A stretch of 28,488 nucleotides of DNA from Acutalibacteraceae bacterium (GCA_045604545.1 JAZUOG010000083.1:1-28488), one strand, 5' to 3'. Shown: positions 1 through 17,788, counted from the stretch's first letter. The notes: generated by a model from the letters alone, not told the origin. Numbers and translations are program-made.

Positions 1-272
1 TGAGAGGGCTTATACAGAACAGCCTCATTTAGTGGCGGCGTATACAGTAGAAGTGATCGGTCTGCTTAAATTCCCCACTCAATATGTTGATGGTTATCAC
101 AAGCCCTCTCCGTCATGGCTTACGCCATGCCACCTCTCCCAGAGGGAGAGGCAAGAAATACCTAAATACGCGGCTGGCAGACCGTATTACGCGTTCTACG
201 CGGAGGCTACGGAACAGAGGGCTATGCCCGCAAAAGAAAAAGCACCCGTTTTACGGGTGGATTCTTGTTGTT
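1..272 (+). repeat. Module A copy 1 (window-truncated at its 5' side): ~270-nt noncoding element ending in an intrinsic terminator; near-identical to 17520-17788
   Basis: ~97% identity to 17520-17788. Contains a long-range stem gagggctt(5-12)/aagccctc(107-114), an 8-bp hairpin cctctccc-aga-gggagagg (133-151), and a terminal hairpin cacccg-tttta-cgggtg (243-259) followed by a T-rich tail. The embedded 91-aa ORF has no RBS, and all 5 substitutions between the two copies are nonsynonymous. Confidence 0.6.
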
Positions 273-411
273 CCCGCAAATGCCGTGGCATCGCCCCGAC
301 CCCGTAGGGGACGGCCTCAACGGTCCGCCAATGTACCTGTCCCGATACGGACCACCGGGGACGGTGGTCCCTACGAATTGTATGGCACAATCCTGCGTCA
401 TCGCACCCAGC

Positions 412-487
412 CTGTCATTGCGAGGGCGCACAAGCGCCCGTGGCAATCTTCGCAGAAAGATTCTTGCGCTTCGCTCAGCATGACAAG
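412..487 (+). repeat. Module B copy 1: 76-nt imperfect palindrome (REPIN-like), second copy at 17225-17300
   Basis: Outer arms tgtcat.../...atgaca, an inner hairpin gggcgc-acaa-gcgccc, and a central aatctt-cgcaga-aagatt hairpin. ~90% identical to 17225-17300. Confidence 0.55.
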
Positions 488-514
488 GGACAACGACTCC
501 TCGGATTGCCCCTA

Positions 515-12459: not shown

Positions 12460-12594
12460 GGCAATATTTCCTTTAATAATAGAATGAACGCCTCTATTAT
12501 GGTACAAAATGAAAGGAAAGGCAAGCAAAATTTGAAGAAAAACAGACAAAATGTGAAAAAATCCCGACTTTTTTCCAAAAGTTTCAAAAATGTC

Positions 12595-16051: not shown

Positions 16052-16080
16052 TTGAAAGATGGGGGATGGTGTGATAAAAT
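16052..16080 (+). promoter_or_regulatory. Promoter TTGAAA-17-TAAAAT (TGn extended) for the two-gene unit 16136-17006
   Basis: Hexamers at 16052-16057 and 16075-16080. Confidence 0.5.
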
Positions 16081-16135: not shown

Positions 16136-16570
16136 ATGAAAACAACCCATATCGAGGCGAACTATGGCGCGTATCCGATCACAACGGCGGCGTTTGACGG
16201 CGAAAATGAGCTGTGTGTGGTGATTGAGCCGCATGAATATGAGATGCGTTTTAACAAAGAGTATGTGTCCCGTTTTTCATTCCCGGGGTGTACGGTGAAG
16301 GCGACACCGTCGGGTGCTGTGTATTTCTTTGACAGCAACGGCGAACTGTCGGCGGCGTGTGACGGTACGGCGGCAATGACATGTCCCATGGTGCAGGTAA
16401 AGGTGACGGCGAAGGACGTGACGGTGACGTTCGGGCAGGAGTGCGAGGTCGACACCTATCCTCACTGTGACGGCGAGCATGATCGCTATGTGATACGCTT
16501 TTGCGCCGACCGCGGTGTGGTGTGGCATCTTGAAGATAATGCCGTCGAGATTGAAGAAGAGTTTGAATAA
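16136..16570 (+). CDS. Hypothetical protein (144 aa, Cys-rich, no recognisable family)
   Basis: RBS agggggtaag with ATG at 16136. The ORF-track N-terminal extension has no RBS. Confidence 0.6.
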   Translation: MKTTHIEANYGAYPITTAAFDGENELCVVIEPHEYEMRFNKEYVSRFSFPGCTVKATPSGAVYFFDSNGELSAACDGTAAMTCPMVQVKVTAKDVTVTFGQECEVDTYPHCDGEHDRYVIRFCADRGVVWHLEDNAVEIEEEFE

Positions 16571-16592
16571 ACGATAATAAAGGAGAATGAAC

Positions 16593-17006
16593 ATGGAACT
16601 GTCAAATGAAAAGGCACTTGCCGTGGAATGGCGTAAACTGAGAACCCTGCTCACCACCAACAACAAGCTGGAATACGAGTTGTTTAAAAAGGTGTTCGAG
16701 GAGACCAGAGACCTGTTGTCGTCCTGCGCGACGGCAACCGCCATCGACAAAAGCTACATGAACGTGATCGTGGAAGCCTACAAGTTCAGCGGCACTGACG
16801 GTGCTTACAAGGACGCAAAGCCGCAGGCGGCGCTCATCATGACCGAGCGTATGCTGCAGCATTATGTCCTTGACAGCCATGTCGGCGACGTGCGCAGCGG
16901 TGTGTATGTGTATGTGCTGGAAGCGAAGGAAGAGATCTACATTGACTTTGAAAATGTGGACACTTCCATCGCCGTTCTCGGCCGCGCTCTGGAGAGACGG
17001 TATTAA
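16593..17006 (+). CDS. Hypothetical protein (137 aa)
   Basis: RBS aggag 16581-16585, with the ATG at 16593 preferred by spacing. 22 nt after the upstream gene, so likely co-transcribed. Confidence 0.6.
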   Translation: MELSNEKALAVEWRKLRTLLTTNNKLEYELFKKVFEETRDLLSSCATATAIDKSYMNVIVEAYKFSGTDGAYKDAKPQAALIMTERMLQHYVLDSHVGDVRSGVYVYVLEAKEEIYIDFENVDTSIAVLGRALERRY

Positions 17007-17224
17007 GGGCAGGGATAAGGGCAGGGATATCCGCGACATCTGTCGCGGGTGATATTCGCACTACGTGCGAGTGATATTTGCCCCGCGGGCAAGTGAAATG
17101 TTGCTGTCGCAACGTGAAGGAGTCCGCTTCGCGGACGGATCGCCCTCTCAGTCTCGCTGACGCTCGACAGCTCTCCCATGGGGAGAGCCAAGGCGACCGC
17201 CTGTCGCGAGACCACCACCCAACT
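17007..17224 (+). repeat. Hairpin array: direct repeat gggcagggata x2, then four ~22-nt units (GTGAWAT + variable GC hairpin), then a nested multi-stem domain
   Basis: GTGA at 17049, 17071, 17093 and 17114. The hairpins are cgcac-tac-gtgcg, gcccc-g-cgggc, gttgc-tgtc-gcaac and gtccgc-ttc-gcggac. An outer stem gtctcgc...gcgagac encloses gctctccc-atg-gggagagc (17170-17188). Confidence 0.6.
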
Positions 17225-17300
17225 CTGTCATTGCGAGGGCGCGTAAGCGCCCGTGGCAATCTTCGCAGAAAGATTCTTCGCTTACGCTCAGAATGACAAG
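17225..17300 (+). repeat. Module B copy 2 (the GNRA loop gtaa replaces acaa)
   Basis: Aligns to 412-487. The differences are confined to the loop and a short segment of the 3' arm. Confidence 0.55.
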
Positions 17301-17519
17301 GGGGAGGCGATCAGCCTCTCACAAATTCTGCACCAATATGGGGGCAACCGTTGCCTCCCTTGCCTAAAGGGAGGTGGCACGAGCGTATGCGAGTGACGGA
17401 GGGATTCTTTTTGTGTACCGAAAACCACGCGTTAAACGCGTGGTTCAGTGAAGGCTATGCCGATGAGTAAAAAACACGGCTCTCCCTTTGGGAGAGCTGT
17501 CAAAACCGTAGGTTTTGAC

Positions 17520-17788
17520 TGAGAGGGCTTATACAGAACAGCCTCATTTAGTGGCGGCGTATACAGTAGAAGTGATCGGTCTGCTTAAATTCCCCACTCA
17601 ATGTGTTGATGGTTATCACAAGCCCTCTCCGTCATGGCCTACGCCATGCCACCTCTCCCAGAGGGAGAGGCAAGAAATAACTAAATACGCGGCTGGCAGA
17701 CTGTATTACGCGTTCTACGCGGAGGCTACGGAACAGAGGGCTATGCCCGCAAAAGAAAAACCACCCGTTTTACGGGTGGTTTCTTTTT
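17520..17788 (+). repeat. Module A copy 2, ending in a bidirectional intrinsic terminator
   Basis: ~97% identical to 1-272. Terminator ccacccg-ttttac-cgggtgg followed by tttcttttt (17761-17788). Preceded by the 9-bp hairpin gtcaaaacc-gta-ggttttgac. No convincing sigma-A promoter lies immediately upstream. Confidence 0.6.

What the first reader, a model, noticed from the sequence alone, without database searches (positions are those of the whole stretch)
17040..17136. Four tandem ~22-nt units, each with a conserved GTGAWAT head plus a different GC hairpin
GTGA recurs at 17049, 17071, 17093 and 17114, a 21-22-nt phase equal to about two helical turns. Each unit carries a short palindrome whose sequence differs between units while its pairing is preserved (cgcac/gtgcg, gcccc/cgggc, gttgc/gcaac, gtccgc/gcggac). 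That pattern is what structure-preserving selection looks like. It is not a CRISPR array, because the units are too short and the constant part is only 7 nt. It resembles an iteron-like or protein-binding array of stem-loops, at DNA or RNA level. An 11-nt direct repeat gggcagggata x2 precedes it.
Basis: seen in the sequence. Interest (0 to 1): 0.6.

Follow-up and report, generated by a model that had tools for sequence, protein, structure and literature searches.

The report
Gut-1 tandem-hairpin motif after a gene
The four "units" are a real copy of a catalogued but functionally unexplained element of gut bacteria, the Gut-1 motif (Rfam RF01706): a row of short stem-loops joined by the conserved linker GTGAAAT, here directly after a small gene, so it is a new example of something known rather than a new kind of thing.

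Summary
Window 17047-17125 (+) matches Rfam RF01706 "Gut-1 RNA" above its gathering score (53.3 vs 50 bits). The full element spans 17004-17140: a leader, five stem-loops and GTGAWAT junctions. It starts at the stop codon of a 137-aa ORFan.

Three orthologous or paralogous copies keep the phase and hairpins with compensatory stem changes. In about 80 other loci, mostly gut Clostridia MAGs, 255 distinct hairpins keep 97% Watson-Crick pairing.

It is not an iteron array or a CRISPR array. Published function: none (Weinberg 2010).

My survey adds four points.
- Canonical Gut-1 copies lie just downstream of tRNA genes, paired with an inverted second array.
- Window-type "solo" arrays usually follow a co-oriented gene.
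- Copies can be multicopy and evolve independently of their flanks.
- Loop sequences favour the opposite (ATTTCAC) strand (C-GNA-G, GNNA), and G-U pairs are not enriched. So the strand, and RNA versus single-stranded DNA, remain open.

Best reading: a folded single-strand element carried in the 3' UTR, with repeated linkers as a protein-recognition platform. Main rival: a REP/BIME-like DNA repeat.

The parts
16593..17006 (+). Upstream 137-aa ORFan, second gene of a two-gene unit with the 144-aa ORF at 16136-16570. Its TAA stop overlaps the start of the element.
   Evidence: ORF list and translation. No Pfam, NCBIfam, PADLOC or PDB match. Only 3 relatives among 5.8 billion proteins.
17004..17029 (+). 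Leader: 12-nt tandem repeat TAAGGGCAGGGA x2.2. The 'AAGGGCAG' leader is shared by the related arrays in L245 and L241 (two copies).
17024..17030 (+). Degenerate first junction GGGATAT. It reads GTGATAT in L245 and GTGAAAT in L241.
   Evidence: Alignment.
17031..17048 (+). Hairpin 0: ccgcgaca-tc-tgtcgcgg.
17049..17055 (+). Junction 1: GTGATAT.
17056..17070 (+). Hairpin 1: tcgcac-tac-gtgcga. On the opposite strand the loop reads C-GTA-G.
17071..17077 (+). Junction 2: GTGATAT.
17078..17092 (+). Hairpin 2: ttgccc-cgc-gggcaa.
17093..17099 (+). Junction 3: GTGAAAT, the family consensus.
17100..17113 (+). Hairpin 3: gttgc-tgtc-gcaac. The identical hairpin occurs in the second L241 array.
17114..17121 (+). 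Terminal junction variant GTGAAGGA. It is purine-rich and resembles a Shine-Dalgarno sequence. The same kind of ending (GTGAAGGA / GTTGAGGAGG / GTTAAGGAAG) closes most solo arrays.
17122..17136 (+). Terminal hairpin 4: gtccgc-ttc-gcggac. The opposite-strand loop is C-GAA-G. L241 carries a compensatory change (gtcggc/gccgac).
17137..17140 (+). Tail GGAT. This is the end of the block that is 98.6% identical to L245. Similarity to all relatives stops here.
17047..17125 (+). Extent of the Rfam RF01706 (Gut-1) match: 53.3 bits against a gathering score of 50.
17758..17782 (+). First intrinsic-terminator-like site on the + strand after the ORF (bidirectional). None lies between the stop codon and the array, so the array is inferred to be co-transcribed.
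   Evidence: consensus scan only.

Best explanation
**Shown.** The feature is a member of the Gut-1 family (Rfam RF01706). It is a modular array of short stem-loops whose stems vary freely while staying paired, joined by a conserved purine-rich junction, GUGAAAU (here GUGAUAU x2, GUGAAAU, GUGAAGG). This copy has a leader, five hairpins and a tail (17004-17140). It starts at the stop codon of a small ORFan gene.

**Inferred.**
1. No terminator lies between the ORF and the array, so the + strand of the array is transcribed as the 3' UTR of the two-gene unit.
2. There it folds into five consecutive hairpins separated by about 3 unpaired nucleotides (GAA/GAU). The AU...GU ends of the junctions extend each stem.
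3. This repeated junction-plus-helix unit is most likely a multivalent recognition platform for one sequence-specific factor that reads folded single strands. The likely effect is on processing or protection of the transcript's 3' end.

**Not known.** The factor and the physiological output. The acting strand, and whether the acting nucleic acid is RNA or single-stranded DNA, are also unsettled (see rivals).
For: **Family match**
- The covariance model scores above the curated threshold, with full-length alignment of three hairpins and junctions.

**Beyond chance**
- Shuffle controls never reach the observed run.
- The fold gives five hairpins, with 0 of 200 shuffles folding as well.

**Conserved in relatives**
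- The orthologous gene in L241 (86% aa identity) and L245 (74%) is followed by the same architecture.
- L241 has different, compensated stems: 13 of 39 pairs changed on both sides among only 3 distinct arrays.
- A paralogous copy follows an ABC-transporter operon on the same contig.

**Family-wide**
- Hairpins between junctions have 173 distinct 5' arms among 255 distinct hairpins.
- They are 97% Watson-Crick paired, against 43% when arms are re-paired at random.
- 11 of 14 junctions not required by the search pattern read GTGAAAT.

**Co-transcription**
- No + strand terminator lies between 17006 and 17758.
- In L005 the array lies between the stop codon of an 886-aa gene and that gene's terminator.
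- L241b and L287 have the same order.
- Solo arrays are co-oriented with the upstream long ORF 48 times against 19. They often begin 0-45 nt after its stop codon.

**Strand stability as RNA**
- The + strand is the more stable RNA (-61.4 vs -54.9 kcal/mol), because the AU/GU junction ends pair.
Against: - **No expression data exist.** Transcription and strand are inferred only.
- **No wobble signal.** Stem mismatches show no tolerance typical of RNA: 11 G-U, 16 A-C and 18 other among 1338 pairs.
- **Loops favour the other strand.** On the ATTTCAC strand 96 loops are C(GNA)G and 54 are GNNA, against 4 and 1 on the GTGAAAT strand. Three-nucleotide loops dominate (150 of 255). C-GNA-G is the hallmark of very stable DNA mini-hairpins and is much weaker in RNA (PMC13037366, PMC3201870).
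- **Many arrays sit after a terminator.** This includes every canonical tRNA-linked copy.
- **Dispersed-repeat behaviour.** Copies can be near-identical and multicopy, and evolve independently of their flanks.
- **No promoter or partner.** No conserved promoter was found on either strand. No protein partner was identified.
Confidence: 0.5

Rival explanations
1. DNA-level dispersed palindromic repeat, REP/BIME- or BOX-like in lifestyle. The array is a modular mini-hairpin repeat that spreads or is homogenised among intergenic sites at gene 3' ends and tRNA terminators. It is recognised as folded single-stranded DNA on the ATTTCAC strand, with the GTGAAAT/ATTTCAC junction as the site read by an unknown enzyme. 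Any RNA effect is secondary.
For: - Stems are perfectly Watson-Crick, with G-U no commoner than A-C.
- Triloops dominate. The asymmetry for C(GNA)G is 24:1 and for GNNA 54:1 on one strand. This matches extraordinarily stable DNA mini-hairpins (PMC13037366, PMC3201870).
- Near-identical copies sit at several contig ends of one MAG (L064, L066, L067, L077; also L105, L106, L110). Some lie right after the stop codons of different genes.
- The window array is 98.6% identical to L245 over 141 nt, while the adjacent protein is 74% identical and the downstream DNA is unrelated.
- Hairpin units are shared and re-ordered between arrays.
- The surrounding 800-nt spacer is a mosaic of at least 4 other dispersed repeats.
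- MAGs labelled as three phyla carry it: Clostridia, Akkermansia and Bacteroidaceae.
- Sister arrays with other linkers exist: CAUCAU, ACGAGAUU, AATTCAC.
Against: - No transposase, Y1/HUH enzyme or integrase recurs near 82 loci. Only a PF05635 four-helix-bundle gene does, in 9 of 82.
- Unlike REPs, the palindrome sequence is not conserved within an array.
- No empty site or target duplication was seen.
- The loop-optimised strand tends to be the template strand of neighbouring genes rather than the lagging-strand template. Orientation against GC skew is random, 39 of 75.
- The grammar is conserved across distant taxa, which suggests function rather than drift.
Confidence: 0.3
2. A small RNA transcribed from the opposite strand. 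It would consist of hairpins with GNRA/GNA loops joined by AUUUCAC, with a 5' CCUCC/CUUCC-like segment that could pair with ribosome-binding sites. It would be convergent with the upstream gene or tRNA and end at the bidirectional terminators.
For: - Loop statistics favour this strand.
- A-run/T-run bidirectional terminators lie 2 nt from the first junction in many loci, which places them just downstream in this orientation.
- Some copies have TATAAT-like boxes just beyond the terminal hairpin on this strand: L245, L262, L005, L004 and the second L241 array.
Against: - The window copy has no such box (GGCGATCC) and no terminator on that side before the ORF.
- The -10-like boxes lie so close that transcription would start inside the terminal hairpin.
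- No consistent -35 element was found.
- Triloops are unusual for RNA.
- The AU/GU stem extensions are lost on this strand.
Confidence: 0.1
3. Double-stranded DNA protein-binding array: iteron, centromere or operator-like direct repeats phased on the helix.
For: - The spacing in the window is 21-22 bp.
- Three and four junctions lie in inverted arrays in the composite form.
Against: - Spacing varies from 18 to 26 bp in relatives and always equals the hairpin length.
- The spacers are self-complementary with strand-specific loops. A duplex-binding protein does not require this.
- No initiator or partition gene is in the window.
- The window is chromosomal: Mfd, PPDK and a tRNA gene.
Confidence: 0.04
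4. A repeat-RNA antitoxin or processing array, like ToxI of type III toxin-antitoxin systems, serving the two adjacent ORFan proteins.
For: - Tandem RNA units with an A-rich junction lie next to two small unknown proteins.
- The array is better conserved than the genes.
Against: - The units are not identical.
- The array lies downstream of the genes, not upstream of them.
- The proteins have no significant PADLOC or Pfam match; the best is PDC-M02B at E 0.0014.
- The same arrays occur after tRNAs and unrelated genes.
Confidence: 0.03

Closest known systems
Gut-1 RNA motif (Rfam RF01706; Weinberg et al. 2010, Genome Biol 11:R31, PMC2864571)
   Same: - Three consecutive hairpins joined by GUGAAAU, with covarying stems.
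- Carriers are gut bacteria.
- The window scores above the family's gathering threshold.
   Different: - The canonical members score 75-80 bits. They are the 'A' arrays that follow a tRNA gene and its terminator, and they are paired with an inverted 'B' array.
- The window copy is a lower-scoring 'solo' form. It follows an ORF stop codon, carries extra hairpins and has a GTGAAGGA-plus-hairpin ending.
- The paper gives no function. It says only that the motif is found in human-gut sequences.
REP / BIME elements of enterobacteria, and BOX elements of Streptococcus pneumoniae (from general knowledge)
   Same: - Extragenic palindromic units clustered in mosaics at the 3' ends of transcription units.
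- Multicopy and modular, with a variable number of units.
- Transcribed into 3' UTRs.
   Different: - In REPs the palindrome itself is the conserved sequence, and a RAYT (Y1 transposase) is the partner.
- Here only the 7-nt linker is conserved, the stems differ within an array, and no such enzyme was found nearby.
Multi-hairpin protein-sponge RNAs (CsrB/RsmZ type; from general knowledge)
   Same: A repeated short motif is presented many times on a scaffold of hairpins.
   Different: - In CsrB the motif (GGA) sits in the loops.
- Here it sits between the hairpins.
- No partner is known.
DNA mini-hairpins d(GCGNAGC) / d(GCGNNAGC) at single-strand origins and N4 promoters (PMC13037366)
   Same: C-GNA-G and GNNA loops on short G+C stems, in tandem, on one strand.
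   Different: - Those are single sites in phage or plasmid single-stranded DNA with known enzymes (primase, N4 RNA polymerase).
- Here the sites are chromosomal arrays with a conserved linker.
Plasmid iterons and CRISPR arrays
   Same: Regularly spaced direct repeats.
   Different: - The constant part is 7 nt, against 17-22 bp for iterons and 23-50 nt for CRISPR repeats.
- The spacers are hairpins.
- No rep or cas genes are present.

Membership tests
Gut-1 RNA motif (RF01706) | Covariance-model score at or above the curated gathering score | tested here: met
   53.3 bits against 50; E 4.7e-8 over the window; model positions 1-77 of 77.
Gut-1 RNA motif (RF01706) | Three or more consecutive hairpins separated by GUGAAAU-type junctions | tested here: met
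   Five hairpins. The junctions are GGGATAT, GTGATAT, GTGATAT, GTGAAAT and GTGAAGG.
Gut-1 RNA motif (RF01706) | Stem pairing kept through sequence change | tested here: met
   13 of 39 pairs changed on both sides among window, L245, L241a and L241b. Family-wide pairing is 97% Watson-Crick, against 43% in a re-pairing control.
Gut-1 RNA motif (RF01706) | Canonical context: directly after a T-run or terminator (often of a tRNA), with the leader CAAC-GAAAU | tested here: not met
   The window copy follows an ORF stop codon with an AAGGGCAG leader. It is a variant context, not a failure of the sequence/structure definition.
Gut-1 RNA motif (RF01706) | Acts as an RNA of the GUGAAAU strand | tested here: inconclusive
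   Co-orientation and terminator order favour transcription of this strand. Loop and wobble statistics do not favour it. No expression data are available.
Iterons (plasmid replication origin repeats) | Near-identical 17-22-bp direct repeats at fixed helical phase next to a rep gene | tested here: not met
   The constant part is 7 nt. Spacing is 18-26 nt in relatives. No Rep domain was found and the context is chromosomal.
CRISPR array | Identical repeats of 23-50 nt with unique non-palindromic spacers; cas genes or a leader | tested here: not met
   7-nt repeats, 14-18-nt palindromic spacers and only 4-5 units. No array or cas family was detected in the window.
REP/BIME with RAYT | Extragenic, at 3' ends of genes, multicopy | tested here: met
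   Multicopy status is shown in related MAGs and in L241, not in the window's own genome.
REP/BIME with RAYT | Family-specific conserved palindrome with a GTAG head; associated Y1 transposase | tested here: not met
   Stems differ within and between arrays (173 distinct arms). No recurrent transposase was found near 82 loci.
Type III toxin-antitoxin RNA (ToxI-like) | Identical tandem repeats of about 34-45 nt upstream of a ToxN/AbiQ-type toxin gene | tested here: not met
   The units are 21-22 nt and non-identical, and lie downstream of the ORFs. No significant PADLOC or Pfam match; the best is PDC-M02B at E 0.0014.

The most novel reading that the evidence does not exclude
Gut-1 is not a small RNA. 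It is one family of a wider class of modular mini-hairpin DNA repeats, with sister linkers CAUCAU, ACGAGAUU and AATTCAC. These repeats would act as folded single-stranded DNA on the ATTTCAC strand. They would be placed or homogenised at tRNA terminators and gene 3' ends in MAGs assigned to several gut phyla, by a so far unidentified linker-specific enzyme or housekeeping DNA enzyme.
Probability: 0.25. Interest if true: 0.6.

Novelty: new member of a known kind. Interest (0 to 1): 0.33.

Why it matters
Gut-1 has been an "orphan" motif since 2010: good covariation, no function, and at that time no cultured host.

This copy places it in an NCBI-deposited chromosomal contig, in a defined position immediately after a gene.

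The survey gives testable handles:
- a tRNA-linked composite form;
- a 3' UTR solo form;
- a conserved terminal module;
- multicopy behaviour;
- strand-specific loop chemistry that questions the assumed RNA strand.

If the linker-reading factor were found, it would explain a repeat that is common in uncultured gut Clostridia and that breaks assemblies. As it stands, this is a correct rediscovery of a known motif, not a new system.

Tried and rejected
- **Literature.** I found nothing on Gut-1 beyond Weinberg 2010.
- **Neighbouring proteins.** Pfam, NCBIfam, PADLOC and PDB searches gave nothing informative.
- **Neighbour clustering around 82 arrays.** No transposase or integrase recurs. Only a PF05635 four-helix-bundle gene does, in 9 loci, so it is not universal.
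- **Viral contigs.** Only about 13 of 120 pattern hits are real arrays. Those checked for tRNA genes lie next to them, so this is not a phage feature.
- **Metagenome scan for window-type endings.** 20 of 83 hits are real. It produced no empty site.
- **Wobble-pair strand test.** No signal.
- **Terminator census on both strands.** Inconclusive.
- **Promoter search.** The L005 locus has no promoter-like site on either strand, and -10 boxes on the antisense strand are inconsistent between copies and absent in the window.
- **GC-skew orientation.** Random.
- **Generic DNA folding energies.** They do not separate the strands: -30.4 vs -29.8 kcal/mol.
- **Pairing between inverted A and B arrays.** It was predicted in one locus, but the hairpin arms in a second locus (L035) are not complementary.
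- **Other ideas rejected.**
  - Coding or mini-ORF: the spacing is not a multiple of 3.
  - SECIS element.
  - Arm-type integrase sites or Tn7-like transposon ends: the palindromic spacers stay unexplained.
  - Complementarity to the 16S rRNA 3' tail: it fits only the GUGAU variants in the window.

Full report
**1. Observation**

The sequence at 17040-17136 is as described. GTGA occurs at 17049, 17071, 17093 and 17114, and each spacer is a perfect short hairpin.
- a fifth hairpin just upstream (17031-17048), preceded by a degenerate junction GGGATAT;
- the fact that the preceding direct repeat is a 12-nt tandem repeat (TAAGGGCAGGGA x2.2, 17004-17029) overlapping the TAA stop of the upstream ORF.

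GTGAWAT is not over-represented in the window as a whole: 9 sites against 6.8 expected. Three of these sites are consecutive here. A run of four phased GTGA sites with hairpin spacers was never approached in shuffles. No run of 3 or more appeared in 1000 shuffles of the window, nor in 5000 shuffles of the intergenic region. The + strand folds into exactly five hairpins at -61.4 kcal/mol, and 0 of 200 shuffles fold as well.

**2. What it is**

An Rfam scan of the window gives two hits above threshold: a tRNA-Gln, and RF01706 "Gut-1 RNA" at 17047-17125 (+). The Gut-1 hit scores 53.3 bits against a gathering score of 50, with E 4.7e-8.

The model consensus is three hairpins joined by GUGAAAU. The AU and GU ends of the linker extend the stems, which leaves about 3 unpaired nucleotides.

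The source paper says only that Gut-1 is a probable non-coding RNA with good covariation, with 43 examples, all from human-gut metagenomes. It proposes no function (Weinberg 2010, PMC2864571). I found no later work in the held library.

**3. Context in the window**

The window is chromosomal: Mfd, pyruvate phosphate dikinase and a tRNA gene. The array lies at the start of an 800-nt spacer between convergent genes.

Upstream is a two-gene unit of ORFans: 144 aa at 16136-16570 and 137 aa at 16593-17006. A promoter-like site lies at 16052-16080. Neither protein matches any Pfam, NCBIfam, PADLOC or PDB entry at a significant level.

No terminator-like site lies on the + strand between the stop codon and 17758. 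I therefore infer, without expression data, that the array is transcribed as a 3' UTR.

The rest of the spacer is a mosaic of other dispersed repeats:
- 17520-17785 is a 97.7% copy of window 1-266;
- 17225-17302 matches window 412-489;
- 17359-17405 recurs in L106.

**4.

The 137-aa protein has only three relatives in 5.8 billion sequences. Both foreign loci keep the array right after the stop codon.
- L241 (86% protein identity) has the same architecture with different, compensated stems. One hairpin occupies a different position.
- A second array on the same contig follows an ABC-transporter operon. It has the same AAGGGCAG leader and one hairpin identical to the window's.
- Among these three distinct arrays, 13 of 39 pairs changed on both sides.
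- L245 (74% protein identity) has an array 98.6% identical over 141 nt. Similarity ends abruptly at 17140.

So phase and palindromes are conserved, but the array's history is decoupled from that of its flanks.

**5. Wider survey**

Real arrays separate cleanly from chance hits by whether the spacer is self-complementary.
- About 80 genome loci are real.
- Nearly all are gut or rumen Clostridia MAGs: Oscillospiraceae, Acutalibacteraceae, Ruminococcaceae and Christensenellaceae.
- A few are MAGs labelled Akkermansia or Bacteroidaceae.

Two architectures appear.

(a) *Composite.*
- The order is a tRNA gene, an A-run/T-run terminator, an 'A' array and an inverted 'B' array. The tRNA genes are of at least 14 different identities.
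- The A array has 3-4 junctions at a spacing of about 18-20 nt and is co-oriented with the tRNA. The B array usually has 4 junctions at a spacing of about 25 nt.
- An 8-11-nt segment before the A array can pair with a segment after it. This pairing covaries between loci.
- The Rfam model scores highest (75-80 bits) on these A arrays.

(b) *Solo arrays, like the window's.*
- They have 3-5 units and end in GTGAAGGA / GTTGAGGAGG / GTTAAGGAAG plus a final hairpin.
- They score 52-79 bits. The window lineage scores 53-58.
- They are co-oriented with the upstream long ORF 48 times against 19. They often start 0-45 nt after its stop codon.
- In L005 the array sits between the stop codon of an 886-aa gene and that gene's terminator.
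- Others sit just after a terminator.

Near-identical copies occur at several contig ends of single MAGs. The only recurrent neighbouring gene is a PF05635 four-helix-bundle gene, in 9 of 82 loci. No transposase or integrase recurs. Arrays with the same grammar but other linkers (CAUCAU, ACGAGAUU, AATTCAC, ATGAAAT) lie beside Gut-1 arrays in some loci.

**6. Which strand, and RNA or DNA?**

*For the GUGAAAU-sense RNA:*
- the co-orientation and terminator order described above;
- the AU/GU stem extensions, which make the + strand the more stable RNA;
- the G-to-A junction variant (ATGAAAT), which keeps that pair.

*Against it:*
- Of 1338 internal stem pairs, mismatches are 11 G-U, 16 A-C and 18 other. 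That is about what random mutation would give, with no wobble tolerance.
- Loops are strongly strand-specific. On the ATTTCAC strand 96 of 255 are C(GNA)G and 54 are GNNA (34 of them GNRA). On the GTGAAAT strand the counts are 4 and 1.
- Three-nucleotide loops dominate.
- C-GNA-G is the signature of extraordinarily stable DNA mini-hairpins and is much less stable in RNA (PMC13037366, PMC3201870).

*What did not settle it:*
- generic DNA folding parameters do not separate the strands;
- orientation against GC skew is random;
- terminator and promoter censuses are inconclusive.

**7. Mechanism**

I commit to the following, at about 0.5. The element is a Gut-1 family array carried in the 3' UTR of the ORFan unit. 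It folds into five hairpins. Its repeated junction-plus-helix unit is a multivalent recognition platform for one factor that reads folded single strands. The effect is on 3'-end processing or protection.

Identity, anatomy, conservation and covariation are shown. Transcription, the acting strand, the factor and the output are inferred.

The main rival (0.3) is a REP/BIME-like DNA repeat acting as single-stranded DNA on the other strand. It explains the loop chemistry, the perfect Watson-Crick pairing, the multicopy behaviour and the decoupled evolution. It lacks an enzyme, an empty site and a consistent strand logic.

The lesser rivals are:
- an antisense small RNA;
- a duplex-DNA binding array (the iteron idea), which is contradicted by the variable spacing and the self-complementary spacers;
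- a ToxI-like antitoxin, which is contradicted by the non-identical units, their position and the unrelated contexts.

**8. Verdict**

This is a correct observation of a known, functionally orphan motif. It is a new member in a variant (solo, post-ORF) context. Its interest is modest as a discovery. The strand and DNA question and the tRNA-linked composite architecture are worth a specialist's follow-up.

Noticed in passing
window 17520-17785 and window 1-266: A 266-nt repeat, 97.7% identical between its two copies, ends in a bidirectional terminator and holds long internal inverted repeats. The contig starts inside one copy. It matches no Rfam family.
   Followed up: partly
window 17225-17302 and 412-489; L241 1865-1940: A palindromic element 'tgtcattgcgagg...gaatgaca' recurs within the window (93.7%) and in the related contig (87%).
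   Followed up: no
window 17359-17405; L106 5056-5100: A short element 'cctaaagggaggtggcac..gtgacggagggat' recurs next to a Gut-1 array in an unrelated MAG (91% identity).
   Followed up: no
window 296-375; L245 1290-1410; L241 7095-7125; L001, L012, L202, L256: Units of 'GTAGGG' followed by a G+C-rich hairpin lie near Gut-1 arrays in several loci. They look like classical REP units with a GTAG head.
   Followed up: no
window 17004-17029: The 12-nt tandem leader contains GGGCAGGG twice, the same letters as the E. coli KOPS consensus GGGNAGGG. The AAGGGCAG leader abuts the stop codon in all four related arrays.
   Followed up: partly
window 16136-17006: Two adjacent ORFan genes (144 and 137 aa) have no family, defence-system or structure match. 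Three proteins, the window's own among them, matched in 5.8 billion, and each foreign copy is followed by the array.
   Followed up: partly
L006, L008, L027 (two copies), L035, L055, L098, L166, L221 and others: Canonical Gut-1 arrays are half of a composite: tRNA, bidirectional terminator, A array, inverted B array. A covarying long-range pairing brackets the A array. This composite is not described in the 2010 paper's text.
   Followed up: yes
L006 4814-5170, L022, L035 1046-1390, L049, L112, L225: A PF05635 (23S rRNA intervening-sequence protein, four-helix bundle) gene starts 16-55 nt beyond the B array in 6 loci, and the family recurs in 9 of 82 array loci.
   Followed up: partly
L005 3320-3660 (- strand); L003 2405-2500; L095; L022, L048, L116: Tandem-hairpin arrays with other linkers lie next to Gut-1 arrays: CAUCAU with opposite loop polarity, ACGAGAUU in an Akkermansia MAG (within 440-nt tandem modules), AATTCAC and ATGAAAT. 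This suggests a wider class.
   Followed up: partly
window 17049-17117: The four GTGA junctions place TGA stop codons in all three + strand reading frames. In some relatives (L005, L202) the upstream gene's stop codon is the TGA of the first junction.
   Followed up: partly
window 12504-12561: A 21-nt tandem repeat (ACAAAATGTGAAGAAAAACAA x2.8) lies upstream of the pyruvate phosphate dikinase gene.
   Followed up: no
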